Below are positions 6,425 to 27,996 of a stretch of 40,149 nucleotides of DNA, in pieces. Each line of letters opens with the position of its first letter. The stretch's first letter is position 1. The DNA comes from Candidatus Ryanbacteria bacterium RIFCSPHIGHO2_02_FULL_45_17b. GTDB lineage: Bacteria; Patescibacteriota; Minisyncoccia; Ryanbacterales; 2-02-FULL-48-12. The notes beneath the pieces are model-generated. The model was not told the origin of the DNA. It searched no databases and saw only the letters and a program-made list of their open reading frames with translations. The stretch lies in assembly GCA_001819815.1 (NCBI GenBank), contig MHNO01000010.1:1-40149 (forward strand), in the 5' to 3' direction. A program made the translations under genes and the position numbers.

Positions 6425-6430
6425 CCATTC

Positions 6431-11597: not shown

Positions 11598-11604
11598 ATT
11601 ATTC

Positions 11605-13233: not shown

Positions 13234-13431
13234 GTGGAATTAACTACAGTATCGGATTTGTCTGTTGGTGACATCATAGAGGGTCCAGATGGTCCCGAGC
13301 TGGTGACGGACATTAAATCGTCATTAATCTCTTTTCAAGGGAATCACTGCATGACAGTGATTAGTGGACGGGAAAAGATTGTTCGGCATATCCGGGCAGT
13401 GGTATTAAAAAAGCTTCGCCTCATCCCTTAA
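13234..13431 (+). CDS. Small hypothetical protein (about 65 aa) between the two RtcB paralogs
   Basis: GTG at 13234, 6 nt after SD gaggggga. Conserved-looking MELTTVSDLSVGDIIEGPDGPELV.... The longer six-frame ORF starts at 13102. Confidence 0.35.
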   Translation: MELTTVSDLSVGDIIEGPDGPELVTDIKSSLISFQGNHCMTVISGREKIVRHIRAVVLKKLRLIP

Positions 13432-14854
13432 ATACGGCAATCGGGCGCGTGTAGGCTACCGCGCGCATGATGTTCGCATTCTCCAACGGTTTTATAACGG
13501 CATCCAGACCTTCATTGGTTATATGGACTGCCGTTTTTTTATACGGCGGTTTTGAGGTGTAGATATCTGTTGAATGATTGTTCGGATGCGGCTGTACGGC
13601 TCCGTTTTCTTTATGTGTTTTTATGGTTTCTCCTGCGCCATGATCTGCGGAAAAAAGATGATTTTGGGCTCCCTGAAGTCCTATACCGATATAAGAATTG
13701 GTGTTGTTGAAGCCGGATATAAGCACAGGTTTATCATCAAACACGCGGGTTGCGGTATGGCGGTGTACGATATATGTTTTTCCCGCGATGGCTTCTTCAT
13801 GAATGGCGTTATGAACCGTATCCCACAAAAGACACACAGATGTGCTTGCTCCAAATGTTTCTTGGAGCGCGTCTGTCACGCGTTTTACAATGGCAAGGCG
13901 AAACGCGTAGCTATAATTGAGAGATGCTTTGATAGAAGCAAAAAGCCGCGCGCCTTCAGGAGTGTTGACGGGGACCGCTTGAAATTTCATCGGATGAAAG
14001 TAATATCGCCAACGCGTACGGAAATTAAGGATACCTTCCTCGGAAGCAAAGTGAAAGAGGAACTTGGCAATGAACTGGAATAATCTTGTTTTGAAACTTT
14101 TGGATTCTTTTTTGCGTTTTGCAAAATAGCGACCCATATAGTGCGACACCGCCCCGCCCCCGCCATGATACATAATGACTACTTGGTCTTTGGAAATTCC
14201 CCAAGAAGAAGCTGTTGTTTCATCCGGTATATGTTCTATATACTGTACCTCAAGAAAATGGTTTCCCTTAAACCCATAGCCAATATCGTGCCTGCCAGAT
14301 ACCCATGCAGATCGGGGCAATATGCGTTCAGGCGGAAATGCGTGTTCAGTTGCATCATCCATAACATCACCCGCGTATTCAATATGATTGAGGGTTTCAG
14401 GAGACATATTATATTTACGCGCCGCGAATTTTGCGCCGTCGCGAATGGCGTCCGCCAGATCTTTTTTAGAAAAGTCGTATTGTGCGCCTGTTCGGTCTAT
14501 GATGCCAAGCCACAGTAATATATTTTGTATGGTGCCAAACCGCGCGCTTCGGTGTTCTTGCATATGTGCGTAAAATGTTTCCAGCTTGTCAGGCGTAAGG
14601 TCGTTTCGTTTGAGAGATGTGAGTATTATGCCCATACCGCACCCAACCGATGGCGCGGTGAGTTCGGGAATGATAACACCATCGGCGGCGGTGACAAATG
14701 AACACGGCGCTTCGTTGTTTTCTTTGAGATGGATGTCTGGCAGGCACACAAGGGGGCGTGTAATCTGCGGTAGGGAAGCAATAGAAAAAAGCACCTTCTG
14801 TAATTTTTGATCAGCAAGATTGCATCCGAGGTTTTGAATTTTTTCGGGATTCAT
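13421..14854 (-). CDS. rtcB: RtcB-family RNA ligase-like protein (paralog 2, all motifs intact)
   Basis: LPDIHLK...GCGM, GNHFLEVQYIE, YHGGGGAVSHYMGRYF, WDTVHNAI, SADHGAGETI, C-terminal RPIAVFKG. This aligns motif for motif with E. coli RtcB. Confidence 0.75.
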   Translation of the reverse strand: MNPEKIQNLGCNLADQKLQKVLFSIASLPQITRPLVCLPDIHLKENNEAPCSFVTAADGVIIPELTAPSVGCGMGIILTSLKRNDLTPDKLETFYAHMQEHRSARFGTIQNILLWLGIIDRTGAQYDFSKKDLADAIRDGAKFAARKYNMSPETLNHIEYAGDVMDDATEHAFPPERILPRSAWVSGRHDIGYGFKGNHFLEVQYIEHIPDETTASSWGISKDQVVIMYHGGGGAVSHYMGRYFAKRKKESKSFKTRLFQFIAKFLFHFASEEGILNFRTRWRYYFHPMKFQAVPVNTPEGARLFASIKASLNYSYAFRLAIVKRVTDALQETFGASTSVCLLWDTVHNAIHEEAIAGKTYIVHRHTATRVFDDKPVLISGFNNTNSYIGIGLQGAQNHLFSADHGAGETIKTHKENGAVQPHPNNHSTDIYTSKPPYKKTAVHITNEGLDAVIKPLENANIMRAVAYTRPIAVFKG

Positions 14855-14910
14855 TGTAGTATTATTTTACAACAAAAATCGTGTTTTAGCAACTATAATA
14901 GGTGGTCCCC

Positions 14911-15966
14911 ATGAAGCTCCATTATCTTACCCCCCTTACATTTCCATCTCGTTATGTAAACCGCCTGCAGGTTATGAAGATGTCAGGCGCGTTTTCAAAA
15001 CGGGTAGATTTTGCGTTATATATTGCGGAGTCGCGTATGTCCCGAAATGATCTTTTTCAGACATACAATATCCATGAACCTTTTTGTGTGGAAGAAGTGG
15101 GAAATGCAGCGTTTCTGCCACGTAGGTTTTGGGGGGCGCGCCGGTTTCTCCCATGTATAAGAACTGCTCCGGAACATACAGTATGGTATGCGCGCGACGT
15201 GTTGCTTACCGATTGGCTGTTATTTTTTCACAAACAGTTTTACGGGAATTATTTTTTTGAACTGCATACGCTTTCCCGATTTTCAGAACAGCGATACCGC
15301 CGTGTTTTTGCGGGCGCGCGTGGTATTATTACCACGAATGAAGATAAGAAAAAGATTCTTATGAAACGATTTGGTATTGATGAACAGCATATTCTTGTTG
15401 CTCCCAATGGTGTCGATTTTGATGAGTTTGACGTGCTGAAAGATCGCAAGCTTGAGATGCGGAAAGAGCTTGGTATTGATGAACATTGTGTTCTTGTGGC
15501 ATATGTCGGCACGGACGCAAAAGAATATGGAACCGATGCATTACGCCACGCTGGACAGCTTTTACAGAATACCGCGCGTATTGAAATTATCTCCGGAAGG
15601 CCGAGAAATGAAGCTTTGAAATATATGGCAGCAGCGGATATATTGGTGGCGCCGTACTGCGCTACCAGCGAACATTTTATAACATATATGTCGCCAATGA
15701 AAATACGAGAATACATGGCAATGGAGCGACCCATGATTGTTTCTGATCTTCCCTCAATACGCGCGTGTGTGCCATCTGAAGCATATGCGTTTTTTGCGGT
15801 TCCGTGTGAGAGTTCAGACCTTGCGCGTGCCATAAATGAAGCGTGCGCAAATATGGAAGAGGCGCGCCGGCGGGCTAAGAATGCTTATCACTTGCTGCGG
15901 GCAGGAGGTTTTTCTTGGGATGATCGCGTTACGCGTATTATTGATTTTATAAAGACGCGCGTATGA
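14911..15966 (+). CDS. GT4-like glycosyltransferase
   Basis: C-terminal EYMAMERPMIVSDLPSIRACV. ATG 14911 is preceded by SD aggtgg and TATAAT (14894). Confidence 0.7.
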   Translation: MKLHYLTPLTFPSRYVNRLQVMKMSGAFSKRVDFALYIAESRMSRNDLFQTYNIHEPFCVEEVGNAAFLPRRFWGARRFLPCIRTAPEHTVWYARDVLLTDWLLFFHKQFYGNYFFELHTLSRFSEQRYRRVFAGARGIITTNEDKKKILMKRFGIDEQHILVAPNGVDFDEFDVLKDRKLEMRKELGIDEHCVLVAYVGTDAKEYGTDALRHAGQLLQNTARIEIISGRPRNEALKYMAAADILVAPYCATSEHFITYMSPMKIREYMAMERPMIVSDLPSIRACVPSEAYAFFAVPCESSDLARAINEACANMEEARRRAKNAYHLLRAGGFSWDDRVTRIIDFIKTRV

Positions 15967-16790
15967 GCGTGTTTTTGCATAGAATGTTAGAAATATGCCT
16001 TTTTCTAAGCGGCTTAAATGCGGTATATATATTTTTCTCAAAAAAACGATTAATCATGTTGGGATACCACAGTATTTCAGATTCATTGAACAGTATCCTG
16101 TTGCAAAACGATATCTATAAACATCTTTCTGTTCCGGCGGCTGTTTTTGAAAAACAGCTTATGTTTTTGCAGAAGCACAACTATACGTTTCTGCGATTTT
16201 CTGATTTGCGGAATATACGAGAGGGGAAGCAAGCAATGCCTAATCGTCCGGTGCTTTTGTATTTTGATGATGGATACAAAGACAATTATCTTAATGCGTA
16301 TCCTATTCTCAAGAAGCACGGCATACCGGCGACTCTTTTTGTGGCAACCGATTGTATTGATAAAAAAAGGTTGTTATGGGATAGCGCTCTGGATCCGGCG
16401 CGGGCGAATATTTTTTTGTCTTGGGATGATATCCGCGCGATGCAGGATGTTTTTGATATAGGCACGCACACGGCTTCGCATCGGAAATTAACAACACTGA
16501 AGCCGGATGAAGTGAAGGAAGAATTTGAAATGTCTCGAAAGCGGATTTATGAAATGACGGGGAAGCGTGTTGTAGCACTTTCATATCCGAAAAGCCGATG
16601 GACTTTGGAAACGCGCCGCTGTGCCCAAGAAGCAGGTTTTGAGTTTATTCTTGCTCATGGGAGGGGATTTCGGCACAGTGCTGATTTTCGCTATCTGGAA
16701 AAAATACCCGTTGGTCCTGCGGATTCAATGATGCAGTTTCGCGTGAAGCTTGGTATATATTATCCATTGATGAATATGGGGAGGAAATGA
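15963..16790 (+). CDS. Polysaccharide deacetylase (CE4 / NodB-homology domain)
   Basis: LLYFDDGYKDNY...ATLFVATDCI and HTASHRKL motifs. Confidence 0.8.
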   Translation: MSVFLHRMLEICLFLSGLNAVYIFFSKKRLIMLGYHSISDSLNSILLQNDIYKHLSVPAAVFEKQLMFLQKHNYTFLRFSDLRNIREGKQAMPNRPVLLYFDDGYKDNYLNAYPILKKHGIPATLFVATDCIDKKRLLWDSALDPARANIFLSWDDIRAMQDVFDIGTHTASHRKLTTLKPDEVKEEFEMSRKRIYEMTGKRVVALSYPKSRWTLETRRCAQEAGFEFILAHGRGFRHSADFRYLEKIPVGPADSMMQFRVKLGIYYPLMNMGRK

Positions 16791-17518
16791 AGCAACCTTT
16801 TATAGAACGAACGTATTTCTTTTTTACCTATGCGCGGGTGATTCTTGATGATGAGCTTTTGCGCCGTCTTATCCATAAACAGGCATATTCGTATATAGTC
16901 GGTTTGTCCCATGAAAACTTGTCTTTTGATGTGCCGGTTTCCGTGCGGAAAAAACAAACTATCAATATATATCTCAATAAACCCATGGAAGAAATTTTTC
17001 GCGGATACAGCGACACGGCGCGCAATGAAATTCGTCGCACGGAAAAAATGGAAGGCTTGCAATTTACGCGCGATGACGGCAAATGGGGCGACGTGTATGC
17101 CATGTATCTTAAGCATCGCAACGCGCGCGGTTTGCCGGTGCACACGTGTTCTTTTTTACAGCAATGCATGCTTTTTAATGCGTATTGGAACGGGACTCTG
17201 ATTTCTACGATTACGTGTTATGATGCGCATCCCTATCTCCGCATTCAAAATATTTTTTCCCGGCTTGATGGAGGCGATAAGGAATTGCGGCGTATCGCGG
17301 GCTTTGCGGCGCGGCGGTTGGTACACGAAATTTGCACGTATGGCAACGGAAATGGATATCAGCTTCTTGATATGGCTTCAGCTAATTTTACGAATCCCGC
17401 AAGAGCCGGCATTACGCAATTTAAAAACTCGTTTGGCGGCGTAGTATCAGATGAATATACCTATACATACAAGAGCGCGCTGGCGCGGTTTGCCGGTCGT
17501 ATACGAAACATGGTATGA
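16787..17518 (+). CDS. FemAB / BioF2-like GNAT-fold protein (Acetyltransf_6-like). Putative aminoacyl or acyl transferase
   Basis: C-terminal GNGYQLLDMASANFTNPARAGITQFKNSFGG resembles the FemAB/CelD-like fDfgG...FK..fG signature. This is a weak call. Confidence 0.4.
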   Translation: MKQPFIERTYFFFTYARVILDDELLRRLIHKQAYSYIVGLSHENLSFDVPVSVRKKQTINIYLNKPMEEIFRGYSDTARNEIRRTEKMEGLQFTRDDGKWGDVYAMYLKHRNARGLPVHTCSFLQQCMLFNAYWNGTLISTITCYDAHPYLRIQNIFSRLDGGDKELRRIAGFAARRLVHEICTYGNGNGYQLLDMASANFTNPARAGITQFKNSFGGVVSDEYTYTYKSALARFAGRIRNMV

Positions 17519-18225
17519 AAAAACTTTCCATTATCATATCTGCCTATAATGAAGCGCGTACCATCCGGCGTGTTTTGGATGCGGTACGCAAAGCACCGTT
17601 GCCCCCCGAGATTCAGGAACGAGAAATCATTGTTATAAATAATGGTTCGTCTGATGAAACGGCGGACATTCTTTCTCACGAACAGGATATTAGCGTAATA
17701 ACACTTCAGCCAAACCGCGGTAAAGGAGGCGCTTTAAAAGTCGGGTTTGCCAACGCGACGGGTGATATCGTGCTTGTACAGGATGCTGATCTGGAATACG
17801 ATCCAGAGGATTATCCGGTGTTGCTTGGTCCGATTCTTTCTGGAAAAGCAGAGGCGGTTCTCGGTAAACGGCCGCTCGCTGACGTGTCTCTTTTTCACGG
17901 AAGGCATCAGGTGCGTCACATAGCGCCCTTTGTGGGTAATCGTTTGATAAATCGTTTTATCAACGTGTTGTATGGCAACGCATGCAAAGATTACGCGTGC
18001 GCGTATAAGGTGTTTACAAAACGCGTTGTCCAGACAGTGCCGGTACGATCAAATGGATTTGATTATGAGGTTGAGCTTTTGTGTCGCATCATGCGCCGCG
18101 GCATTCCGTTAGCAGAAGTACCGGTTCGGTACCAGCCGCGATCATATGAAGAAGGAAAAAAGATCCGCGCGGCAGACGGATTACGCATTGTATGGGTAGC
18201 GGTGCGAAGCAGATTTTTTGATTGA
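17515..18225 (+). CDS. GT2 polyprenyl-phosphate glycosyltransferase (Dpm1/ArnC/GtrB-like). Short soluble form
   Basis: LSIIISAYNEARTI, VINNGSSDETADIL, GKGGALKVGF, VLVQDADLEYDPEDYPVLL (DXD). Confidence 0.8.
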   Translation: MKKLSIIISAYNEARTIRRVLDAVRKAPLPPEIQEREIIVINNGSSDETADILSHEQDISVITLQPNRGKGGALKVGFANATGDIVLVQDADLEYDPEDYPVLLGPILSGKAEAVLGKRPLADVSLFHGRHQVRHIAPFVGNRLINRFINVLYGNACKDYACAYKVFTKRVVQTVPVRSNGFDYEVELLCRIMRRGIPLAEVPVRYQPRSYEEGKKIRAADGLRIVWVAVRSRFFD

Positions 18226-18242
18226 CTTTTTGTATTGCGTTT

Positions 18243-18352
18243 CTACTTTGTATATAAGAAAAATGTTCTTTATGGCCGACAGGTATTTATATAGAAGGAC
18301 ATCGCCTGCCTGCCGGTAGGCAAGTAGAATATTTTTCTTATATACAAAGTAG
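18243..18352. repeat. Perfect 22-bp inverted repeat (ctactttgtatataagaaaaat / atttttcttatatacaaagtag) flanking 66 nt that hold an inner tgcct-gccggt-aggca hairpin. Lies between the GT2 and GT-C genes
   Basis: Read directly from the sequence. No T-run follows. Confidence 0.85.
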
Positions 18353-18370
18353 ATCGAAGCTTCATGTAGT

Positions 18371-19837
18371 ATGAATATATCCATTTCAGAACCAATGAAA
18401 GATATTTTTGCGGTAGGCAGCGCCCTTCTCGTATTGGTGTGTTTTGCCGTGTGGCACCCGACGGGAGATTTTGTGTCTTCTCCATCGTACTGGGTTGATG
18501 AAGCGGTAAGTGTGGAAAAAGCGCGCAATTTTTTAACGTATGGGGTATTGGATGTCGCGGTTGCTCCCGGTGTTTTGTCTGGAAAGCCCTACGCGACAGC
18601 GGCCGCGGGTCCGCTTCTTACGCTTCCTCTCGCCGGCTTTTTTTCACTTTTTGGTATTGGAATTATGCAGGCAAGATTATATATGTTGTTGTGGCTGATA
18701 CTACTTCTATGTGTTTCTTATTTTCTTGTACGCAACATTTCAGGAAGGCGCGCCGCGCTGTGTGCCGTGTTATTACTGGCAACATTTTCCCCGCTGTATG
18801 CAAATGGCAAGACGGCAACGGGGGATATTCCGGGTTTTGTGGCGCTTTTGTTGGCGCTCTACTATCTCTATATCCGGAAGTGGTATCTATTTTCTGGTAT
18901 GTTGTTAGGTATTGCAACAACAACGAAGCCGTCGCTGTATATCCCCCTTATTGCCGTCGCTATTTTTGAAATAGTTTTTTCTGAACATGAAAGACGAATA
19001 CATAAGGCGGCAGTCGTTGTTGGTGGGGCGGCGCTTATTCTTGTGCCGTGGCTTATTTCTTTGCCTTCGCATCCGCTTGTGCAGACTTCATGGGAAGAAG
19101 TGTATGTTTTTTTTCAGAACCCGTTTCCATCCGACGCGACACCTGTCTTCGGTGTGGGCGCTTTATTCCATAGCACTGTTTTGCAATACATGGCGCTTGT
19201 CATGGCAGCCTTGTTTGGTGTGTGGCGCACGCGGGGAAAAGATGAAACATGGATACGATTTGTGCGTTTTGCTTTCTTATACGCGCTCGCGGCATTTGTG
19301 TTGTATCTTCGCAGTCCTGGCTGGTTGCGGTATCTTCTTAGTGGTACGCTCTTGCTGTTTCTTATTTTTCCACAGACGATACAAATGCTTTTACACCAGC
19401 GCGCGTGGCGGTATCGTGTTCCTTCGTGGACTGCTACCTTTGTACTTATTATGTTTATCGGAGCGCAGGCGGTTCATTTTTTCTTTTTTTCCTGGCGCAC
19501 CGCGTCTGACGCATCCATGCGCGATAGTACCGTGTTAGAGAGCATCGTACAATCACGCGAGACGGTTGGATTTATAGACGCGCCAGCGCTTGCTTCTTTA
19601 TTTGATTCGCGCCGAAAATATCAAGTTATACGTATTAGCGGAAATACTATAGTGGGAGAAAGTCCGCTTGCTGTTCGTGCTGATATGCTTCCGGACTATG
19701 TTTTTATTCCTTACAACAGGTTTGGTGATCAGTCAATGCGTGATTTTGTGGATCCGTATACAAATGTCTTGAAAGAACGTTATATGGATTATACGCCGCC
19801 CGACGCGCGTTTTTCCTTGTATAAGAAAATCCCATGA
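18371..19837 (+). CDS. GT-C fold membrane glycosyltransferase (PMT/ArnT-like, GT39/GT83-like)
   Basis: Multi-TM. N-terminal loop motif YWVDEAVSVEKARNFLTYGVLD (DE/Y...A.N). Large C-terminal soluble domain. Confidence 0.7.
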   Translation: MNISISEPMKDIFAVGSALLVLVCFAVWHPTGDFVSSPSYWVDEAVSVEKARNFLTYGVLDVAVAPGVLSGKPYATAAAGPLLTLPLAGFFSLFGIGIMQARLYMLLWLILLLCVSYFLVRNISGRRAALCAVLLLATFSPLYANGKTATGDIPGFVALLLALYYLYIRKWYLFSGMLLGIATTTKPSLYIPLIAVAIFEIVFSEHERRIHKAAVVVGGAALILVPWLISLPSHPLVQTSWEEVYVFFQNPFPSDATPVFGVGALFHSTVLQYMALVMAALFGVWRTRGKDETWIRFVRFAFLYALAAFVLYLRSPGWLRYLLSGTLLLFLIFPQTIQMLLHQRAWRYRVPSWTATFVLIMFIGAQAVHFFFFSWRTASDASMRDSTVLESIVQSRETVGFIDAPALASLFDSRRKYQVIRISGNTIVGESPLAVRADMLPDYVFIPYNRFGDQSMRDFVDPYTNVLKERYMDYTPPDARFSLYKKIP

Positions 19838-21162
19838 AACAGTATTTTTTGTCTCCCATTGCGATAGCGGTTATCATAGTGACGCTTGTAAGCGCCGCCT
19901 ATTCTTTTTACTATCACGATCGTCCTCGTGTGGATGCGCAAGCGTATGACTTTGTCGGATGGAATCTTGCGCGCGGTCTCGGGTATATAGAAAACGAACA
20001 GAATGCTGCAAATCCTCGGGCGGATGATGCAATTGTGCGTGTGGGGCCTGGATATCAGTTTTTTCTCGCGGGGGTATATAGTATGTTTGGACATCATGTA
20101 TGGATAGTGTGGATACTGCACGCGTTATTGCGCGGTGCTACGGTATATTTCGTTTATGCTATCACGCGATTTTTTTTGCATAATGAGAAGGCGTCACTTT
20201 TTGGAGCGTTCCTTGTTGGATTTTCACCCGATCTTATTGTGATTAATGGGCTTTTGCTTACCGAGACACTTTTTATATTTTTTTTGGTGGGGGCAGTGTA
20301 TAGTACGCTCCGTTTGATTTCTTCTGATATTTCCGCGACACGGTGGGCTTGGATTGGAGTTGGTCTTTTATGGGCGTGTGCCGTCCTTACTCGTCCTGTC
20401 GCATTGTTTCCTTTGCTTGTGACAGTCGGTGTACTTTTGTTCCATTGGCGGTGGCGGGATGCCGCGCTTGTTGTTCTCATGCCTTTGCTTCTTGTGGGTT
20501 CATGGTCCTATGCCATGACACAGCGATATGATCATTTTATTCTTACGACTACCGCAGGTTGGTATGATTTGTGGGTTGGAAATAACCCCGAAGCAACCGG
20601 CGGGTTTGAAAAATCTCCCGTCATTCAGGATTTTCGCGATGTTACATATGACAGTACCATACTTGAACGTGTTGGACGGGAAAAGTATTTTGAATTTTTA
20701 TTCAATCACCCATTTCAATTTTTGGAGCTTCAGTGGCGCAAAAGCACTCTCTATGTAAGTTCCATGAGACCCGGTGGGTATTGGATCCATTTGTTTGCTC
20801 ATCCATGGGACATGCGTATTACGCTTGCCGCGTCGCTTGTATGGACGTTGATGTTGTTTGCGGGCGGGCTCGCGGGCGGGTATCTTTGGTTTCGTGAGAA
20901 GCGCGATGGTACGTCTCGCTTGTTTTTACTTTTTGCGATAGCGCAGCCCCTTGCCGTTATTCCTATTATTGTTGAGACTCGGTACCGATACGCATTCTTT
21001 CCATTTCTTGCGGTCTTTGCCGCATACTTTGTTGCAACATACGTACCGAAGGTTTCCTTGCGTATCTTAGGATTCGTGTTTGTGTTTCTTGGAACAGCAA
21101 CACTATACGATTTGTGGTACAACTTTAGCGATATAATGGAAAAGATAGGAAGGGTACTATGA
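19834..21162 (+). CDS. GT-C fold membrane glycosyltransferase (PMT_2/ArnT-like)
   Basis: Motif DAQAYDFVGWNLARGLGYI in the first loop. More than 10 predicted TM helices. Confidence 0.7.
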   Translation: MKQYFLSPIAIAVIIVTLVSAAYSFYYHDRPRVDAQAYDFVGWNLARGLGYIENEQNAANPRADDAIVRVGPGYQFFLAGVYSMFGHHVWIVWILHALLRGATVYFVYAITRFFLHNEKASLFGAFLVGFSPDLIVINGLLLTETLFIFFLVGAVYSTLRLISSDISATRWAWIGVGLLWACAVLTRPVALFPLLVTVGVLLFHWRWRDAALVVLMPLLLVGSWSYAMTQRYDHFILTTTAGWYDLWVGNNPEATGGFEKSPVIQDFRDVTYDSTILERVGREKYFEFLFNHPFQFLELQWRKSTLYVSSMRPGGYWIHLFAHPWDMRITLAASLVWTLMLFAGGLAGGYLWFREKRDGTSRLFLLFAIAQPLAVIPIIVETRYRYAFFPFLAVFAAYFVATYVPKVSLRILGFVFVFLGTATLYDLWYNFSDIMEKIGRVL

Positions 21163-22244
21163 AGCGGATTCTCTATATTACGCGCGCACGTCTTTCTTTT
21201 TCCCGCGGGCATACCATTAACATTCTAAAGACAGCCGAAGCTGTTGCGAAAACAAAGCAATATAGCGTGGCGGTCTTTTCCTCCGCTCCTGAGCCCTTTT
21301 CACATGAGAAAATTTGCGGTGAAAAAAAAGTAACGTATCCGGTACCTCTTGATGTTTCGTCGCAGAAGCGATCCTATTTACTCTATGTGTGGAATAATCG
21401 TGATTTGTTTGATGTGTTATATTTTCGTGATCCATTTTTATGGCATATGGCGTTTCTCTCTCGCGTATTTTTAAGAAAGCGTGTCGTTTTTGAGGTGCAT
21501 GGCAGTCATGAATGGGTGTGGGGAAAACCGTTTTGGCATATGTCTGTTTTCTTTGCGCACGGCCTTGTATTTATTACGAAAGGTCTCATGGAATATTATA
21601 ATCCTTCAAAGCCCTGCGTGGTAACACACGTAAACGCTGTTGATATGAAGGAGTTTGAAAAAAATAATGTATTTTCTGATAAACAACGATTAGACCTAGG
21701 ATTGCCAGAGGGAGTTTCTCTGATTATGTACGCCGGGAATTTTTTATGGTACTCATGGGACGTGCTCATTCGCATGATGCATTTGGTTCCCCGACCAGCG
21801 ATGCTTATTTTAGTAGGCGCAAAGCCCGAGGAGAAAGAACTCATGGAAGAGGCGGCTCGCAAAGAAGGCCTACAAGATCGGGTGCAAGTACATACGCGCG
21901 TGGTGCCGTCTTTGTATCCTTCGTATATACAAGCCGCTGATGTCCTTGTAAATCCTCTTTGTATTTCTTATCCGGGAAGCATATCTTCAAAAATATTTGA
22001 ATACATGGCGGCAGGAAAGCCGATTGTTTCGGCGAAAGGAAAAGCTATGGAAGAGGTGCTTATACACGAGAAAAATGCGCTTCTTGTTGATTTATCGGCG
22101 GAGCAGTTTGGAAAAGCGGTGGTACGTATTTTGAATGATCCGTACATGGCGGCTGAACTTTCAAAGAACGCGCGCGAATCTGCACGGCGTTTTACATGGG
22201 AAGCGCGAGCGCTCGATATTTGCTCACTCCTGGAACGCATATGA
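21159..22244 (+). CDS. GT4 family glycosyltransferase
   Basis: SKIFEYMAAGKPIVSAKGKAMEEVLIHEKNALLVD motif. Confidence 0.8.
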   Translation: MKRILYITRARLSFSRGHTINILKTAEAVAKTKQYSVAVFSSAPEPFSHEKICGEKKVTYPVPLDVSSQKRSYLLYVWNNRDLFDVLYFRDPFLWHMAFLSRVFLRKRVVFEVHGSHEWVWGKPFWHMSVFFAHGLVFITKGLMEYYNPSKPCVVTHVNAVDMKEFEKNNVFSDKQRLDLGLPEGVSLIMYAGNFLWYSWDVLIRMMHLVPRPAMLILVGAKPEEKELMEEAARKEGLQDRVQVHTRVVPSLYPSYIQAADVLVNPLCISYPGSISSKIFEYMAAGKPIVSAKGKAMEEVLIHEKNALLVDLSAEQFGKAVVRILNDPYMAAELSKNARESARRFTWEARALDICSLLERI

Positions 22245-22987
22245 AAACAGACTATCGCATATCGCATCAAAGTGAGCAGGTAAGTCGTGTGTATGATGAA
22301 GTTCTTTATAAACAGGGAACATATGACGACGCATTATGGAGATGGGAACAGTGTATCCTTGAAAAAGAGATCACATTGCTGCAAACGAAAGCAACACCTA
22401 TTTCACTGCTTGATTTTGCGTGCGGCACGGGAAGAATTCTTACTTTTTTGGAGAACAAGGTGAACAATGCGGTGGGTGTGGATATTGCGGAAGAGATGCT
22501 AAGCCGCGCGCGGCAGGTTGTGCAGAATGCCCGTTTGATTAAAGCGGATCTCACTCGCATAGACGCGCTTCGGGGAGAACCATTTGATTTGGTAACCGCG
22601 TTTCGATTTTTTTTAAACGCGGAGCCTGTATTGCGTGAAGAAGCAATGGCGGTTCTTTTTCAAAAACTTCGAAATCAAGATAGCCTGCTGATATTCAATA
22701 TACATGGAAATCTTTGGAGTCATCGGGTCTTTACGAAAATAGGGCTTTGGTTTCGGGGAAAGCGTCTAAGCGTAAGCACGCGCCGCGAGATGGAATTACT
22801 TGCCAGGCGGCATGGTTTGGAGATGGCGCGGTGGTATGGGTTTGGCATACTTCCGAAGATAGCGTATCGGGTTATTGGTTCACGGATTGCTCATGGTATA
22901 GACAAGATTCTTTCTCATATTCCCGGTATGCGTTTTATATCTTACGATCTTGTTTTTGTATGTAAAAAAGGTATTGTAAAAAAGTGA
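22241..22987 (+). CDS. Class I SAM-dependent methyltransferase
   Basis: Motif [20 protein letters not shown] overlap with the upstream stop. The six-frame ORF begins at 22196. Confidence 0.75.
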
Positions 22988-23967
22988 AAAAAGCTCTTAT
23001 AACCGGTGTTACGGGGCAAGATGGTTCCTATCTTGCCGAACTCCTGCTCGAAAAAGAGTATGAGGTGCATGGAGTCATGCGCCGCGCTTCCACATTTAAT
23101 ACGGCGCGGATTGAGCATTTATACCAGGATCCCCATGTTGAAGGAGTGCGATTTTTTCTGCATTATGGCGATCTTGCGGACGCGAACACTATTCGCAAAC
23201 TTATCTATAACATCCGTCCGGATGAAATTTATAATCTCGGCGCGCAATCGCATGTGCGCGTTTCGTTCGATATCCCTGAATACACTGCAAACATTACGGG
23301 GCTCGGCACGCTTCGTATTTTGGAAGCCATGAAAGATTACGAACATGAAACGGGGGCAAAAGTAAAATTGTACCAAGCTTCTTCTTCGGAATTGTTTGGT
23401 GATGCGCCTCCTCCGCAAAATGAATCCACGCCATTTTCTCCGCGAAGCCCTTATGGTATCGCGAAGCTTTTTTCGTATCACACCGCAAAAAACTACCGTG
23501 AAGCGTATGGCATATTCGCAGTAAACGGCATTTTATTTAATCATGAGTCGCCGCGAAGGGGAGAGACGTTCGTAACCCGTAAAATCACACGGGGTATTGC
23601 CGATATTGTGGCGGGGAAGGCAGACAAGATTTATTTGGGGAATTTGGATGCTAAGCGCGATTGGGGGTATGCGCCTGAATACGTGGAAGCCATGTGGCGG
23701 ATGCTTCAACAATCCGAACCTGAAGATTTTGTAATTGGCACGGGGGAGGCGCACACGGTGCGCGAGTTTTGCGAGGCGGGGTTTCGTCATGCCGGTCTTG
23801 GTGATTGGCAGACATATGTCGGCATCGACCATCGATATTTCCGCCCCACGGAGGTAGATTTCTTGCTTGCCGATCCGCGAAAAGCAAAAGAAAAACTTGG
23901 GTGGGAAGCAAAAATAAAATTTGAGGATCTCGCAAAAATAATGGTAGACGCAGATTTGAAAAAATAG
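22984..23967 (+). CDS. gmd: GDP-mannose 4,6-dehydratase
   Basis: [40 protein letters not shown], short-chain dehydrogenase Y...K. Full-length and typical GMD. Confidence 0.9.
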
Positions 23968-23995: not shown

Positions 23996-24035
23996 CTCCC
24001 GAAATAAATTTCGGGAGGATGTTGTTTGTGTGTGT
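23996..24035 (+). terminator. gmd terminator: ctcccgaaa-taaa-tttcgggag followed by a T-rich tract
   Basis: Hairpin followed by gatgttgtttgtgtgtgttt. Confidence 0.6.
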
Positions 24036-24081: not shown

Positions 24082-26904
24082 CTAGTTCACCCCCAGCGCT
24101 TTACAGTCAGCGAATAGGAAAGCGGGGGATGTCTGCCCGCAAATTCCTACGTCATCCGCGCCGTTGGCATCTGCTGGGTTGGTGGTTCCATTATTTGTTA
24201 CGCCCGCGCAGGATGTAAGGAGATTCACTCCTGGAACAGGAGCACTCGCATCAATAAGCGTATTAGGCGCGATTGTGATCCCTCCCTGGAACGCGCGGAT
24301 TTCATTTGGTCCGCCTTTCTTGCTTCCTGCGGAATCTACCACCGGGCCAAATGAGTTGTTGACGCCAAGTCGCGCGAGATTTACATCTCCGCCCGCCCAC
24401 AACTTAATGCCGCCAATGGCGTTGTCGTTTCCAGATGACTCAAAGGCTCGGTCTGTGCCTATTACATCTCCGCCTGCCCGCACATCAACCACACCACCTC
24501 GCGGGTTAGATGTTCCCGTGCCTGCCGCAACCCCAGCAAAGCTTTTGCGTACGGGGGGTGTTGTGTCATCTCCATGTCCGTACACTTCAACATTTCCGAG
24601 AGCTTGTATTGATACACGTCCTGGTTTGTCGCTATGCGTGACAAATGAAAGCACTCCCGGGAATATATCATATTTAGTGCCAAAGGGATTGTACTCATCA
24701 AAGAACGGTTCGGCTGTGTTTGCATTGACGACTACATCTCCTCCAAACGCCGCGATATAAATATCAGGCTTGGGAGCTCCTGTTGAATGGGCTTTTGCCC
24801 GTGCGAGGACGAGTCCGTTTAGGACAACATCTCCGCCGCAACATGAAGCAATGGTTATATCACCTCCACCACGGTCAATACCAATGTTTTGTATCAGTGA
24901 CATTGGTCCCGTGGTTACATCACCACAGCAACTTGAAATAGTGATGTTTCCTGGAACACCCAATGTTCCGGTTACGCGATTTGTTATTTCACCGTCTATG
25001 GTTATTTTCCCATCAGCGTGAATAACAACATCACCCGTTTTGTCATTGTAGGACTCAACCAGAATGACCGCACCCCATTCAATGACAATCTCGCAAGTGG
25101 TGCGTATTTCAATACCTGGCGCGGCTCGCTCACTGCCGGCTGGTGGCACTTGGGCGGTCTTGATGGTAACGCCTGCCATAACGACGAGCTTTTTCCCGCC
25201 AAGATCAAAGATCGCCTTCCATGTATCAGCAGCCGTCAACTCACTTTTGTAGTAGGTGAAAAACGCACAGAGATCCGCGTCTCCAAGGCATACAGGAATG
25301 TCAGGGTTAAGATCAACTGTAGTGTCTTGGTCAACAATAACCTCAATAGGTTGTCCGCCGGCATCAAGCTCGCAAACAGGACAGTTTCCGTTGGGTGGTG
25401 GCGGACCTCCGCACGAACACGTTGGTAATACCACATACGCCGGAAGGGAAACCGCACCCGCGCAATTATCAGGGTTGAGAGTCAAAACAGGAGTTACGGT
25501 TCCATTGTAGGCGGTGCCTACGCACGATTCGAGCGTTACTGTTCCATTCGCAGGGACGCCACCGCCGCCGGCGTTGAGTTGTCCGCCTACGGTGCCAAGA
25601 AGCGCGCCCGTAAAAGAAACACCTTCGATACTGCCACCCTTCGGGGAAGTGCCAGTACTTGCGCCGAGCGCCTGGATTGAAGAAGCTCCAAAGTCAACAT
25701 TTCCGTCAGGAGCCCCAACCCCGCCTGCGTGTATGGTTATCTTCCCACCATGACTGCCACCTTTTGTCGCGTTTGCTTGCACAGCAAGGCCAGATGTTGT
25801 CACTGATCCATCTGTGGATTTTACCGTGACAATGCCCCCATTGGAGTTTGTCACATGAGACTGATTTGCATGCACAGCATACACAATCCCTGTTGTATCG
25901 CCGATGATTTTTATGTTTCCTTTTGCGAATATATCAATCCATGCGATCTCATTTCCACCGCTTTGCGCGGTGTCGGCGTTTACTTGGCCATTGTTCACGT
26001 CAAACGCGTTTATGGTCAAGGTACCGCCAGACCAAATTTCCACACATGCTGTAGAATTAGATGGTTTGTCGGGGCGATTTAGCCCGTTGCAATGATTTAC
26101 TGGATTGTCTGGTATGGTATGCCCAGGTCCAGTAGATTCTACGCGGCCAAAAATTTCGATTTCGCATCCACCCTCCAAGTGAACCAAATCGGCGCCCGGG
26201 TCGCGTCCTTTACTGCGCACAATACCCGTTGTGCCAACAGTAAGGTCACAACCGGCAATAATAGTCACAGGACCGCCTCCGGGTCGCTGTGTGCCGCCGG
26301 TACCGGTAAGTTTGCTTTCAGACGATACAAGCCCGTCAACCGCAACAATGCCTTTCGGGGCTTTCATGTAAATTTCACCCCCAGGGCATTTTGCGTCAAC
26401 GGTTATTTTCGCGCCGTTTTCAACTTTTATATCGCCCTCAGTCGAGAGAATATCAACCGTGCCGCCTTTCCCGCCGGAGCAGGAACTTGCGGTTTGGTTC
26501 ATGGAGATAAGCGCGCCACTCGCGCCGCTTCCTTTCAGCACCACATCGCTGGTTGCCGTAATAACTACTGTTGCGGCAACACCGCTTGCGGTGATTGCGT
26601 TACCAGTGATTTTAGTGCCATCGTCCATGACCAAGTCGCCGGTGATATCAATCTCCAACGTTGAGCCCGGGTCGGTTTTTATATGACCCGATCCAACCAA
26701 ATGGAGGTTTTTTGGGACACTAAACATGCCGCCGGCACCCATATTGTGTAGTGTTGTAATTTGACACTCCGTGGGGAGGTCAACGTCGCACGGAAGCGCG
26801 GGGTGCAGTGCCCGCGCCACCGATGGAGCAAAAAGAAAAGCACTCATGATGAGCACTCCCCAAATTGCAGAGGTAGAGCAAGATGCAGACAATTTTCTTA
26901 TCAC
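24082..26904 (-). CDS. Large (940 aa) secreted Gly/Thr/Cys-rich repetitive protein (beta-helix / adhesin-like)
   Basis: N-terminal signal peptide. Low-complexity body with many short G-rich beta-strand-like repeats and many Cys. No catalytic motif recognised. Confidence 0.6.
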   Translation of the reverse strand: MIRKLSASCSTSAIWGVLIMSAFLFAPSVARALHPALPCDVDLPTECQITTLHNMGAGGMFSVPKNLHLVGSGHIKTDPGSTLEIDITGDLVMDDGTKITGNAITASGVAATVVITATSDVVLKGSGASGALISMNQTASSCSGGKGGTVDILSTEGDIKVENGAKITVDAKCPGGEIYMKAPKGIVAVDGLVSSESKLTGTGGTQRPGGGPVTIIAGCDLTVGTTGIVRSKGRDPGADLVHLEGGCEIEIFGRVESTGPGHTIPDNPVNHCNGLNRPDKPSNSTACVEIWSGGTLTINAFDVNNGQVNADTAQSGGNEIAWIDIFAKGNIKIIGDTTGIVYAVHANQSHVTNSNGGIVTVKSTDGSVTTSGLAVQANATKGGSHGGKITIHAGGVGAPDGNVDFGASSIQALGASTGTSPKGGSIEGVSFTGALLGTVGGQLNAGGGGVPANGTVTLESCVGTAYNGTVTPVLTLNPDNCAGAVSLPAYVVLPTCSCGGPPPPNGNCPVCELDAGGQPIEVIVDQDTTVDLNPDIPVCLGDADLCAFFTYYKSELTAADTWKAIFDLGGKKLVVMAGVTIKTAQVPPAGSERAAPGIEIRTTCEIVIEWGAVILVESYNDKTGDVVIHADGKITIDGEITNRVTGTLGVPGNITISSCCGDVTTGPMSLIQNIGIDRGGGDITIASCCGGDVVLNGLVLARAKAHSTGAPKPDIYIAAFGGDVVVNANTAEPFFDEYNPFGTKYDIFPGVLSFVTHSDKPGRVSIQALGNVEVYGHGDDTTPPVRKSFAGVAAGTGTSNPRGGVVDVRAGGDVIGTDRAFESSGNDNAIGGIKLWAGGDVNLARLGVNNSFGPVVDSAGSKKGGPNEIRAFQGGITIAPNTLIDASAPVPGVNLLTSCAGVTNNGTTNPADANGADDVGICGQTSPAFLFADCKALGVN

Positions 26905-27955: not shown

Positions 27956-27996
27956 AGCGATTATACTATAATCATTTTTTACGCGAGAGACAACCC

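What the first reader, a model, noticed from the sequence alone, without database searches (positions are those of the whole stretch)
17515..21162. Dpm1-like GT2 plus two PMT/ArnT-like GT-C enzymes: a lipid-linked-monosaccharide glycosylation module
A short soluble polyprenyl-phosphate sugar synthase-type GT2 sits directly upstream of two paralogous multi-TM GT-C transferases that carry the DE/loop-1 signatures of the PMT/ArnT superfamily. This three-gene arrangement mirrors Ppm1/Pmt (protein O-mannosylation) and ArnC/ArnT (lipid modification). It is embedded in a larger glycan locus with GMD, a CE4 deacetylase and a FemAB-like gene. If the organism is a Patescibacteria member, a complete such module has been little characterised. 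Two GT-C paralogs suggest two acceptor specificities.
Basis: partly seen in the sequence, partly recalled or inferred. Interest (0 to 1): 0.65.

Follow-up and report, generated by a model that had tools for sequence, protein, structure and literature searches.

The report
Lipid-linked sugar glycosylation module, Ryanbacteria
Three adjacent genes in a groundwater Candidatus Ryanbacteria (Patescibacteria) genome look like an ordinary kind of bacterial surface-glycosylation kit, in which one enzyme loads a sugar onto a membrane lipid carrier and two membrane enzymes pass it to targets outside the cell; the targets are unknown.

Summary
At the stated coordinates lie a 236-aa GT2 without transmembrane helices (17515-18225) and two polytopic PMT_2-type membrane proteins, GT-C1 (18371-19837) and GT-C2 (19834-21162).

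- **GT2.** Its family profile matches polyprenyl-phosphate glycosyltransferases over the full length: Pyrococcus Dol-P-Man synthase 2e-26 and ArnC 1e-24.
- **Gene linkage.** GT2 genes of this type sit next to homologues of both GT-Cs across Patescibacteria. Three mutually divergent database proteins are GT2::GT-C1 fusions.

- The two GT-Cs are only remote homologues (26% identity over the core).
- Only GT-C1 has the loop-1 "DE"; GT-C2 has an invariant "DA".
- No flippase lies in the window.
- In relatives each GT-C usually has its own GT2.

The trio sits inside a nine-gene translationally coupled operon (GT4, CE4, FemAB-like, GT2, GT-C1, GT-C2, GT4, methyltransferase, GMD). The donor sugar and the acceptor are undetermined; lipid A is unlikely because Parcubacteria lack LPS genes. 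I rate it a new member of a known kind, of modest interest.

The parts
17515..18225 (+). GT2, a polyprenyl-phosphate glycosyltransferase-like enzyme (Dpm1/ArnC/AglJ type). It is 236 aa with no transmembrane helix.
   Evidence: PF00535 at 2.5e-31. The best NCBIfam hits are AglJ 7e-34, ArnC 9e-19, Dol-P-hexose transferase 4e-16 and PpgS 1e-10, all full-length and all below the equivalog cut-offs. The family profile A5 against PDB gives DPMS 5mlz 2e-26 and ArnC 1e-24 over positions 2-213, and GtrB 1.6e-18. Q89-D90-A91-D92 (the DXD motif) is invariant. No TM segment is predicted.
18242..18353 (+). Long hairpin (28-nt arms, 56-nt loop) inside the only non-overlapping junction of the operon, the 145-nt spacer 18226-18370.
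   Evidence: The arms are 96% complementary. The RNA fold is -51.6 kcal/mol, z = -7.2. The hairpin is retained in the 81%-identity relative with one compensatory T-A to C-G change plus G-U-compatible changes, while the loop differs by a 20-nt deletion. It is absent in the 68% and 61% relatives, where the genes abut. It is not dispersed elsewhere in the window or in metagenomes.
18371..19837 (+). GT-C1, a GT-C fold glycosyltransferase (PMT_2). It is 488 aa, with a transmembrane core plus a C-terminal alpha/beta soluble domain of about 110 aa.
19834..21162 (+). GT-C2, a GT-C fold glycosyltransferase (PMT_2/PMT). It is 442 aa, all-helical, with no C-terminal soluble domain.
14902..15966 (+). GT4 glycosyltransferase, the first gene of the operon.
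   Evidence: Glyco_trans_1_4, Glycos_transf_1 and Glyco_transf_4. Its stop overlaps the next start by 4 nt. Its position is conserved in L001, L005 and L006.
15963..16790 (+). CE4 polysaccharide de-N-acetylase with an N-terminal membrane anchor or signal, so probably extracytoplasmic.
   Evidence: PF01522 at 2e-27. PgaB N-terminal domain TIGR03938 at 1.3e-28. A TM segment at residues 8-26.
16787..17518 (+). FemAB-like protein (related to aminoacyl-tRNA-dependent transferases), 243 aa, no TM helix.
   Evidence: As a single sequence it is only weak. The profile A4 against PDB matches aminoacyl-tRNA-dependent peptide synthase 9wqw at 6.4e-7 and FemX 6snr at 6.6e-4. It is always found next to the CE4 gene in relatives.
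21159..22244 (+). GT4 glycosyltransferase that follows GT-C2 in nearly all relatives.
   Evidence: Glyco_trans_1_4 at 3.6e-21. The GT-C2-GT4 order is conserved in L001, L003, L005, L010, L081, L082 and L084.
22196..22987 (+). SAM-dependent methyltransferase.
   Evidence: Methyltransf_25, _11 and _23.
22984..23967 (+). GDP-mannose 4,6-dehydratase, the last gene of the operon.
   Evidence: TIGR01472 at 516.5 bits, above the cut-off of 415. A terminator-like bidirectional hairpin lies at 23996-24017.

Best explanation
This is an extracytoplasmic glycosylation module of the 'lipid-linked monosaccharide donor plus GT-C' kind. It resembles a three-component system whose flippase is not in the window.

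Proposed steps:
1. The TM-less GT2 sits at the cytoplasmic face of the membrane. It transfers one sugar from a nucleotide sugar to polyprenyl (undecaprenyl-type) phosphate. (Inferred from homology.)
2. The polyprenyl-P-sugar is flipped by a protein encoded elsewhere. (Inferred; no candidate lies in the window.)
3. GT-C1 and GT-C2 each use a conserved aspartate at the start of the first extracytoplasmic loop (D43 and D34). They transfer that sugar to acceptors outside the membrane. (The fold and motifs are shown; the activity is inferred.)

The three genes are the middle of a nine-gene translationally coupled operon: GT4, extracytoplasmic CE4 de-N-acetylase, FemAB-like transferase, GT2, GT-C1, GT-C2, GT4, methyltransferase, GMD. 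The most likely job is therefore to decorate or extend a surface glycan or glycoconjugate of this monoderm Patescibacterium.

Comparative data suggest that GT2(clade A)-GT-C2-GT4 is the older, widely conserved unit. GT-C1 normally travels with its own GT2. In this lineage a single GT2 precedes both GT-Cs, so they may share one donor.

The donor sugar and the acceptors are not determined.
For: GT2 identity:
- It matches full-length only polyprenyl-P sugar synthases.
- The DXD motif is invariant.

GT-C identity:
- Both membrane proteins hit PMT_2 above threshold.
- Both AlphaFold models are confident.
- Acidic residues are conserved at the start of loop 1.

Functional coupling:
- A GT2 of this type lies within 300 bp of the GT-C1 homologue in 25 of 68 loci from species-representative genomes, and within 5 kb in 48 of 68.
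- In four independently retrieved GT-C2 contexts, a GT2 of about 230 aa lies directly upstream or one gene away.
- Three database proteins (P0291, P0353, P0392) are GT2::GT-C1 fusions. They are only 27-37% identical to each other over both domains, so the fusion architecture is conserved and not an assembly error.
- Relatives carry flippase-like genes nearby: GtrA_DPMS_TM and a Wzx-like Polysacc_synt gene in L082, TMEM234 (weak) in L004, and an SMR-like gene (faint) in L006.

Operon structure:
- Start and stop codons overlap at every junction from 14902 to 23967 except the hairpin spacer.

Literature:
- The general mechanism is as described in PMC11127046.
Against: - No enzymatic data exist.
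- The GT2 has no TM helix, and no membrane-anchoring partner was identified.
- All NCBIfam equivalog scores are far below their cut-offs, so donor specificity is unknown.
- No flippase lies in the 40-kb window.
- The GT-Cs have no sequence-level relative among solved structures.
- Structural ranking cannot separate PMT, ArnT, OST and ALG types. For GT-C2 the top hits are OST cores.
- In most relatives the GT2 abutting GT-C1 belongs to a different GT2 clade from the window's GT2. GT-C1's true donor synthase may therefore be encoded elsewhere in this genome.
Confidence: 0.7

Rival explanations
1. Acceptor variant A: a Pmt-like protein O-glycosylation system. One or both GT-Cs glycosylate Ser/Thr-rich disordered stretches of secreted or membrane-anchored proteins. 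This is what Ppm1/Pmt does in Actinobacteria and what GtrB/PgtC2 or Pgf does in streptococci.
Against: There is no MIR domain and no PMT_4TMC hit. The PF02366 match covers only model positions 75-200. The operon context (GT4s, CE4, methyltransferase, GMD) looks like polysaccharide or glycolipid assembly. Structural scores do not favour PMT over ArnT, OST or ALG enzymes.
Confidence: 0.25
2. Acceptor variant B: side-chain decoration or extracytoplasmic extension of a cell-wall glycopolymer or membrane glycolipid. Comparable enzymes are GtrC, GacL, YfhO, and the mycobacterial PimE/Aft enzymes that use polyprenyl-P-sugars.
For: The module is translationally coupled to two GT4s, an extracytoplasmic CE4, a methyltransferase and GMD. 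Five more GT4 genes lie upstream. So does a CDP-alcohol phosphatidyltransferase whose best, weak NCBIfam hits are inositol-phosphate transferases. The GT-C2-GT4 pairing is conserved. A Wzx-like gene and a GtrA-like gene lie near the module in L082.
Against: The window holds no initiating phosphoglycosyltransferase, polymerase, ligase, LCP transferase or exporter. Synteny here also includes the unrelated RtcB genes, so neighbourhood alone is weak evidence. No glycan structure is known for any Ryanbacterium.
Confidence: 0.4
3. GT-C2 is an oligosaccharyltransferase- or ligase-like enzyme. It would transfer a pre-assembled glycan en bloc from polyprenyl-PP, rather than a single sugar from polyprenyl-P.
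Against: The protein ends in TM helices with no C-terminal soluble domain, so it lacks the part of OSTs that carries the WWDxG motif (domain location from general knowledge). There is no STT3 Pfam hit, and it does hit PMT_2/PMT. ArnT and Pmt4 score almost as well, and ArnT has the best TM-score (0.52) and one of the lowest rmsd values (8.1) among the significant hits. A polyprenyl-P synthase-type GT2 lies immediately upstream of GT-C2 homologues in independent genomes.
Confidence: 0.08
4. An ArnC/ArnT-type lipid A (or other lipid headgroup) modification that changes surface charge.
For: ArnC is among the best matches of the GT2. ArnT is a strong structural match for both GT-Cs. Relatives carry a GMD, 126-aa protein, DegT aminotransferase, GT2 cassette that recalls ArnB/ArnC logic.
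Against: Parcubacteria lack lipid A and LPS biosynthesis genes (PMC5220378). There is no ArnT equivalog hit in NCBIfam. The window itself lacks the aminotransferase cassette.
Confidence: 0.03
5. The GT2 is an ordinary soluble GT2 that adds a sugar directly to a growing glycan. Its adjacency to the GT-Cs would then be incidental, and the GT-Cs would take a donor made elsewhere.
For: It has no TM helix. Its scores are far below every equivalog cut-off. In most distant relatives a different GT2 clade abuts GT-C1.
Against: Non-polyprenyl-P GT2s align only over the N-terminal 90-140 residues, whereas DPMS and ArnC align over positions 2-213. TM-less polyprenyl-P sugar synthases have precedent in human DPM1 and the M. 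smegmatis Ppm1 catalytic subunit (general knowledge). GT2::GT-C1 fusions exist. GT2-GT-C2 adjacency recurs.
Confidence: 0.1

Closest known systems
Three-component extracytoplasmic glycosylation systems: GtrA/GtrB/GtrC of Shigella and Salmonella phages, CsbB/GtcA/YfhO, GacI/GacL, and the C. youngae ORF15/13/12 system (PMC11127046)
   Same: A GT2-type (or equivalent) polyprenyl-phosphate sugar synthase is encoded next to a GT-C fold transferase, and both are embedded in a glycan locus. The predicted topology is the same: a cytoplasmic synthase and an extracytoplasmic catalytic loop after TM1.
   Different: No flippase gene lies in the window. The GT2 lacks the C-terminal TM helices of GtrB and ArnC. 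One synthase precedes two unrelated-looking GT-Cs. The GT-Cs belong to PMT_2 rather than to the GtrC, YfhO or GT136 families.
Ppm1/Pmt protein O-mannosylation (Actinobacteria) and eukaryotic Dpm1/PMT (GT39)
   Same: The GT2 is a TM-less Dpm1/Ppm1-like enzyme. GT-C2 passes the Pfam PMT threshold. GT-C1 carries a D-E pair in loop 1. Pmt4 is a top structural neighbour.
   Different: There is no MIR domain and no PMT_4TMC. The PF02366 match is partial. The GT-Cs have no sequence-level match to solved PMTs. Protein acceptors are unproven.
ArnC/ArnT (GT2/GT83) lipid A aminoarabinosylation
   Same: ArnC is one of the best sequence matches of the GT2. ArnT is a strong structural match. GT-C1 shares the general layout of a TM core plus a C-terminal soluble alpha/beta domain.
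   Different: The host lineage has no LPS or lipid A (PMC5220378). There are no ArnT or ArnC equivalog-level scores. The window has no ArnA/B/D or ArnE/F counterparts.
Streptococcus mutans Pgf system (PgfS GT2 plus two GT-C-like membrane proteins PgfM1/PgfM2) and GtrB/PgtC2 (PMC12041528)
   Same: One GtrB-like GT2 serves membrane GT-C-type proteins in a monoderm. The acceptors there are Ser/Thr-rich disordered regions, and similar regions exist in nearby window proteins. PgfS appears among the NCBIfam hits of the GT2 (E 2e-13; N-terminal part only).
   Different: The PgfS match covers only residues 3-104. Homology of GT-C1 and GT-C2 to PgfM1/M2 was not tested (the Pgf architecture is recalled from memory). 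The operon content differs.
Mycobacterial polyprenyl-P-mannose/arabinose-dependent GT-Cs (PimE, AftA/B, Emb) acting on PIM/LM/LAM and arabinogalactan

Membership tests
Polyprenyl-phosphate glycosyltransferases (GT2; Dpm1/DPMS, ArnC, GtrB, AglJ, PpgS) | GT-A fold GT2 domain with a DXD motif | tested here: met
   PF00535 at 2.5e-31. Q89-D90-A91-D92 is invariant in 31 homologues.
Polyprenyl-phosphate glycosyltransferases (GT2; Dpm1/DPMS, ArnC, GtrB, AglJ, PpgS) | Similarity that extends through the acceptor-side C-terminal half of the catalytic domain, not only the nucleotide-binding N-terminal half | tested here: met
   DPMS 5mlz and ArnC align over profile positions 2-213. Other GT2s align only to about position 90-140.
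Polyprenyl-phosphate glycosyltransferases (GT2; Dpm1/DPMS, ArnC, GtrB, AglJ, PpgS) | Score at equivalog level for a named member (which would define donor specificity) | tested here: not met
   AglJ 117.5 bits against a cut-off of 325. ArnC 67.7 against 529. PpgS 41.4 against 370.
Polyprenyl-phosphate glycosyltransferases (GT2; Dpm1/DPMS, ArnC, GtrB, AglJ, PpgS) | Membrane association through its own TM helices or a partner subunit | tested here: not met
   No TM segment was found and no partner was identified. TM-less members exist (human DPM1, M. smegmatis Ppm1; general knowledge), so this does not exclude membership.
Polyprenyl-phosphate glycosyltransferases (GT2; Dpm1/DPMS, ArnC, GtrB, AglJ, PpgS) | Formation of polyprenyl-P-sugar from a nucleotide sugar | not testable with these tools
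   This needs an enzyme assay.
GT-C fold glycosyltransferases | Polytopic helical core whose structure superposes on solved GT-C enzymes | tested here: met
GT-C fold glycosyltransferases | Conserved acidic residue at the start of the first extracytoplasmic loop after TM1 | tested here: met
   In GT-C1, D43/E44 is at least 90% conserved and lies at the start of helix 42-57 after TM1 7-28. In GT-C2, D34 is invariant and lies at the start of helix 34-46 after TM1 8-27. Structural equivalence to the catalytic Asp of solved enzymes is inferred from position, not from a superposition.
Protein O-mannosyltransferases (GT39, PMT) | Pfam PMT (PF02366) match | tested here: inconclusive
   GT-C2 scores 28.5 bits against a cut-off of 22.7, but only over model positions 75-200 of 245. 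GT-C1 has no hit.
Protein O-mannosyltransferases (GT39, PMT) | Loop-1 Asp-Glu (DE) motif | tested here: inconclusive
   GT-C1 has D43-E44. GT-C2 has D34-A35.
Protein O-mannosyltransferases (GT39, PMT) | MIR domain in loop 5 (eukaryotic) and the C-terminal PMT_4TMC module | tested here: not met
   There are no such Pfam hits at E<=0.01. The models show no beta-trefoil.
ArnT (GT83) | Equivalog-level sequence match, with lipid A as the acceptor | tested here: not met
   NCBIfam gives no ArnT hit and there is no PDB sequence hit. The lineage lacks LPS genes according to PMC5220378. The complete genome was not checked here.
Oligosaccharyltransferases (STT3/PglB/AglB, GT66) | STT3 Pfam domain and a C-terminal soluble domain carrying WWDxG | tested here: not met
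   No STT3 hit. GT-C2 ends in TM helices. There is no WWD in either sequence.
Three-component glycosylation system (synthase + flippase + GT-C) | Synthase and GT-C encoded together | tested here: met
   Adjacent in the window. Adjacency recurs in relatives. Fusion proteins exist.
Three-component glycosylation system (synthase + flippase + GT-C) | Dedicated small flippase (GtrA, SMR or MATE type) in the locus | tested here: not met
   No such gene lies in the 40-kb window. Candidates exist in related loci: GtrA_DPMS_TM in L082, TMEM234 (weak) in L004, and an SMR-like gene (faint) in L006.

The most novel reading that the evidence does not exclude
GT-C1 represents a GT-C family found almost only in Patescibacteria. 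It has about 335 representatives at 50% identity and no sequence-level relative among solved structures. Together with TM-less (sometimes fused) polyprenyl-P sugar synthases, it would carry out a surface modification specific to these episymbionts. Examples would be O-glycosylation of Ser/Thr-rich surface proteins, or extension of a lipoglycan anchored on scavenged host lipids. In this lineage two different GT-Cs would have come to share one donor synthase. The conserved hairpin between the synthase and the GT-Cs would set the stoichiometry of the cytoplasmic and membrane halves of the operon.
Probability: 0.2. Interest if true: 0.55.

Novelty: new member of a known kind. Interest (0 to 1): 0.3.

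Why it matters
The envelope of Patescibacteria/CPR bacteria is essentially uncharacterised. [quoted passage not shown] These cells live attached to hosts, so their surface glycans or glycoproteins are likely to matter for attachment and recognition.

This locus gives a concrete, testable, conserved gene set for extracytoplasmic glycosylation in Ryanbacteria and other Paceibacteria. The set includes natural GT2::GT-C fusions that could simplify biochemical reconstitution.

The logic (polyprenyl-P-sugar synthase plus GT-C) is textbook and widespread in bacteria. The finding therefore extends a known mechanism to a poorly studied lineage and does not reveal a new one.

Tried and rejected
- **Solved-structure sequence searches.** Single-sequence and profile searches of both GT-Cs against all solved-structure sequences gave nothing meaningful. 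Only fold comparison worked.
- **Literature.** Searches for GT-C or mannosyltransferase work in Patescibacteria found nothing relevant.
- **Hairpin as a mobile element.** The idea that the 28-nt inverted repeat marks a MITE-like mobile element was rejected. The arm occurs nowhere else in the window. In metagenomes it occurs only at the same locus of close relatives, plus one chance single-arm hit.
- **Hairpin as an intrinsic terminator.** This is not supported, because no T-run follows it. The promoter and terminator scan was uninformative, with promoter-like sites at the shuffle expectation.
- **Flippase in the window.** None was found. The only small multi-TM ORF (27209-27628) has no significant family hit.
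- **ArnT/lipid A and OST readings.** Both were considered and set aside; the reasons are given under the rival explanations.
- **Close paralogy of the two GT-Cs.** Rejected.
- **Donor sugar.** It could not be assigned. GMD next door hints at GDP-sugars, but no reductase or aminotransferase is present in the window, and the GT2 scores are too low for equivalog assignment.

Full report
**1. What is there**

The region 17515-21162 holds three same-strand ORFs exactly as described:
- a 236-aa GT2 (17515-18225);
- a 488-aa membrane protein, here called GT-C1 (18371-19837);
- a 442-aa membrane protein, here called GT-C2 (19834-21162, overlapping GT-C1 by 4 nt).

Pfam gives PF00535 (2.5e-31) for the GT2. 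It gives PMT_2/PF13231 for both membrane proteins (1.1e-12 and 1.2e-9), plus PMT/PF02366 (1.4e-6) for GT-C2. All are above the gathering thresholds. No other Pfam family appears at E<=0.01, so there is no O-antigen ligase/Wzy_C hit and no STT3 hit.

A hydropathy scan finds no TM segment in the GT2, about 8 in GT-C1 and about 11 in GT-C2.

**2. Organism**

The GT2 is 100% identical to a protein of 'Candidatus Ryanbacteria bacterium RIFCSPHIGHO2_02_FULL_4..' on a 144-kb contig. The nearest named relatives of GT-C2 are also Ryanbacteria or Parcubacteria.

**3. Operon context**

From 14902 to 23967 nine genes run on the + strand. Start and stop codons overlap at every junction but one:
- GT4 (14902-15966)
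- CE4 de-N-acetylase (15963-16790), with an N-terminal TM/signal segment at residues 8-26
- a 243-aa FemAB-like protein (16787-17518)
- GT2
- GT-C1
- GT-C2
- GT4 (21159-22244)
- SAM methyltransferase (22196-22987)
- GDP-mannose 4,6-dehydratase (22984-23967; TIGR01472 at 516 bits, above its cut-off)

A bidirectional terminator-like hairpin follows at 23996-24017.

The FemAB-like call is weak for the single sequence (E 0.003-0.02). It becomes credible with a 9-member profile, which matches an aminoacyl-tRNA-dependent peptide synthase at 6.4e-7 and FemX at 6.6e-4.

Upstream lie five further GT4 genes (5236-10795), a CDP-alcohol phosphatidyltransferase (10755-11633, minus strand) and two RtcB genes. 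The transferase's best but weak NCBIfam hits are inositol-phosphate transferases.

**4. The GT2**

Its best NCBIfam matches are all polyprenyl- or dolichyl-phosphate sugar synthases, and all cover essentially the whole protein: AglJ 7e-34, ArnC 9e-19, Dol-P-hexose transferase 4e-16 and PpgS 1e-10. All score far below the equivalog cut-offs.

Against solved structures, ArnC (1e-16) and Pyrococcus DPMS (3e-11) align over residues 1-215. Unrelated GT2s align only over about the first 100 residues.

With a 31-member family profile the order is DPMS 2e-26, ArnC 1e-24 and then GtrB 1.6e-18. The DXD motif (Q89-D90-A91-D92) is invariant.

The evidence therefore supports 'Dpm1-like'. The missing TM anchor has precedents (human DPM1, M. 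smegmatis Ppm1; general knowledge). The nucleotide-sugar donor cannot be named.

**5. The two GT-Cs**

They are only remotely related to each other. BLASTP gives 26% identity over 137 aa, E 0.084. Profile-profile comparison gives probability 94.7%, E 5.8e-8 over 148 columns of the PMT_2 core.

Neither they nor their family profiles match any solved-structure sequence.

The AlphaFold2 models are confident:
- GT-C1 has pLDDT 86.4 and pTM 0.88. It is a TM core plus a C-terminal alpha/beta domain (about residues 381-488).
- GT-C2 has pLDDT 94.6 and pTM 0.93. It is all-helical and ends in TM helices.

- GT-C2: AglB 25.7, ArnT 22.8, Pmt4 22.5, ALG12 21.4, PIG-M 20.6.

Foldseek for GT-C2 ranks STT3/PglB, ArnT and Pmt4 together at E 4e-5 to 7e-4. 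ArnT has the best TM-score.

The fold is therefore GT-C beyond reasonable doubt, but fold comparison does not resolve the subtype.

Conserved residues fit a GT-C active site. GT-C1 has W41-x-D43-E44 at the start of the first helix after TM1, plus K186 and an RSPGWxRY motif. GT-C2 has invariant D34-A35-x-x-Y38 in the same place, plus D133, E144, R187 and R383/R385. The 'DE' signature holds for GT-C1 only.

GT-C2 is not an oligosaccharyltransferase in the usual sense. It has no STT3 Pfam hit and lacks the C-terminal soluble domain that holds the WWDxG motif in those enzymes (domain location from general knowledge).

**6. Is the GT2 functionally tied to the GT-Cs?**

Three lines of evidence say it is.

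(a) Synteny in close and mid-distance relatives:
- The block GT4-CE4-Fem-GT2-GT-C1-GT-C2-GT4-MT-GMD recurs at 81% and 68% GT-C1 identity (L005, L001).
- At 61% identity (L006) GT-C2 is missing but GT2-GT-C1-GT4 remains.
- At 43% identity (L003) the order is GT2-GT-C1-GT-C2-GT4.

(b) Wider distribution:
- A motif-seeded scan of species-representative genomes found 71 GT-C1-family loci. By record title nearly all are Patescibacteria: Ryan-, Taylor-, Kaiser-, Harrison-, Komeili-, Magasanik-, Vogel-, Uhr- and Peregrinibacteria, and Paceibacterota. A few automated TPA bins are labelled otherwise.
- A GT2 of the window's type, with at least 60% coverage, lies within 300 bp of GT-C1 in 25 of 68 loci and within 5 kb in 48 of 68.
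- Four independently retrieved GT-C2 homologues each have a GT2 of about 230 aa overlapping their start or one gene upstream. Three of the four are followed directly by the GT4.

(c) Fusion proteins:
- An exhaustive profile search found 335 GT-C1-family representatives at E<=1e-30.
- It also turned up three proteins of 714-727 aa with an N-terminal PF00535 domain fused to the GT-C1-type domain.
- They are only 27-37% identical to each other across both domains. The fusion is therefore an evolved architecture and not an assembly artefact.
- The W[FY]DEG loop motif follows the first TM helix, as the topology requires.

**7.

Neighbour-joining clustering of 105 such GT2s (no support values) separates the window's GT2 from another group. 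The window's group ('clade A') is about 230-240 aa. 'Clade B' is about 250 aa and 24-28% identical.

- In most distant loci it is clade B that overlaps the GT-C1 start: L016, L019, L020, L024, L025, L027, L028, L030, L032, L043, L044, L054, L055 and L056.
- Clade A sits directly upstream of GT-C2 (L013-L015, L026, L076; also L081 and L083) or upstream of clade B.
- Representatives of both clades, and of the GT2 that follows the DegT gene in relatives, best-match AglJ, PpgS and Dol-P-hexose synthases.

The older units therefore appear to be GT2(A)-GT-C2-GT4 and GT2(B)-GT-C1. In the window's lineage one clade-A GT2 precedes both GT-Cs. Either the two GT-Cs share a donor here, or a second synthase is encoded outside the window.

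**8. Flippase**

None is in the window. The only small multi-TM ORF (27209-27628) has no significant family match.

Related loci do carry candidates: GtrA_DPMS_TM and a Wzx-like Polysacc_synt gene in L082, a weak TMEM234 hit in L004, and a faint SMR hit in L006. The module in the window is therefore two of the three canonical components (definition in PMC11127046).

**9. Acceptors**

Lipid A is unlikely, because Parcubacteria lack lipid A and LPS genes (PMC5220378). Two readings remain.

- The operon context favours a glycopolymer or glycolipid. It holds GT4s, an extracytoplasmic CE4, a methyltransferase and GMD.
- The PMT-type hits favour protein O-glycosylation, as in actinobacterial Ppm1/Pmt or streptococcal GtrB/PgtC2 (PMC12041528). 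So do the strongly Ser/Thr-rich stretches in two nearby anchored or secreted proteins: 1108-2367 with 20 of 30 residues and 3704-5239 with 16 of 30.

I weight these at about 0.4 and 0.25. Neither was tested.

**10. The spacer hairpin**

The only non-overlapping junction in the operon is the 145-nt GT2/GT-C1 spacer.

- It holds a hairpin with 28-nt arms that are 96% complementary, and a 56-nt loop. The RNA fold is -51.6 kcal/mol, z = -7.2.
- The 81%-identity relative keeps it, with one fully compensatory change (T-A to C-G) and two changes that remain G-U-compatible on the + strand. Its loop lacks a 20-nt stretch that is present in the window.
- Relatives at 68% and 61% identity have no spacer.
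- It is not a dispersed repeat, and no T-run follows it.
- Its role is unknown. It could be an RNA processing or stability element, or a scar of the rearrangement that placed GT-C1 here.

**11. Verdict**

This is a member of a well-known kind of system, polyprenyl-P-sugar synthase plus GT-C transferases, in a lineage where it has not been studied. Three searches of the held full-text library found no paper on such GT-C or mannosyltransferase systems in Patescibacteria.

- Novelty: new member of a known kind.
- Interest: modest, 0.3. It rises somewhat if GT-C1 proves to be a Patescibacteria-specific family with a protein or host-lipid acceptor.

Noticed in passing
window 18226-18370 (arms 18242-18269 and 18326-18353): A long, stable hairpin lies in the only intergenic gap of the nine-gene operon. 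It is conserved with a compensatory change in the 81%-identity relative and absent in more distant relatives. It is not a dispersed repeat and has no terminator T-run. Its function is unknown.
   Followed up: partly
database proteins P0291, P0353, P0392: These are natural fusion proteins of 714-727 aa with an N-terminal GT2 domain and a C-terminal GT-C1-type PMT_2 domain. They are only 27-37% identical to one another. P0392's GT2 part carries a DPM1-like 'MDADGSHDP' motif.
   Followed up: partly
L001 12697-17439; L003 14254-17431; L006 13361-16612; L084 8479-11323; L004 1543-8008: Relatives carry a cassette after the operon: GMD, a protein of about 126 aa with no Pfam hit, a DegT-type aminotransferase, and a second polyprenyl-P synthase-like GT2. 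In L004 a B12-radical SAM enzyme, a TMEM234-like small membrane protein and two methyltransferases follow, leading into a GT-C1 homologue. This looks like an Arn-like route to a lipid-linked amino-deoxy-sugar. The cassette is absent from the window.
   Followed up: no
window 11783-13177 and 13421-14854 (minus strand): Two tandem RtcB RNA-ligase paralogues lie between the CDP-alcohol phosphatidyltransferase and the glycan operon. This odd neighbourhood is conserved in many related loci (L003, L005, L006, L015, L026, L082, L084).
   Followed up: no
window 24082-26904 (minus strand): A 940-aa Gly/Thr/Cys-rich protein with an N-terminal hydrophobic segment and no Pfam or NCBIfam hit. It lies in the highest-GC stretch of the window (0.515 against about 0.45). 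A 932-aa gene sits at the same position in L005. It is probably a large surface protein.
   Followed up: partly
window 1108-2367 and 3704-5239: A secreted or anchored PG_binding protein and an LTD/PKD protein carry strongly Ser/Thr-rich low-complexity stretches (20 of 30 and 16 of 30 residues). They are possible O-glycosylation acceptors.
   Followed up: partly
window 5236-10795: Five consecutive GT4 glycosyltransferase genes, one divergent and four co-directional with overlapping ends, lie upstream of the CDP-alcohol phosphatidyltransferase.
   Followed up: no
window 10755-11633 (minus strand): A CDP-alcohol phosphatidyltransferase whose best NCBIfam hits are inositol-phosphate transferases (DIPP synthase 4e-12, archaetidylinositol-phosphate synthase 6e-12). 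Both are far below the cut-offs. This is a hint of an inositol-phosphate lipid or solute in a lineage thought not to make its own lipids.
   Followed up: no
window 16787-17518: A cytoplasmic FemAB-like protein is always paired with the membrane-anchored CE4 deacetylase in relatives. Its family profile matches an aminoacyl-tRNA-dependent peptide synthase (6e-7). This suggests aminoacylation of a sugar or precursor.
   Followed up: partly
window 27868-29580 (minus strand): A tRNA-Ser(TGA) gene lies immediately next to a PIF1-family helicase gene. This could be a junction with a mobile or variable region, since the relative L005 has different genes after the 932-aa ORF.
   Followed up: no
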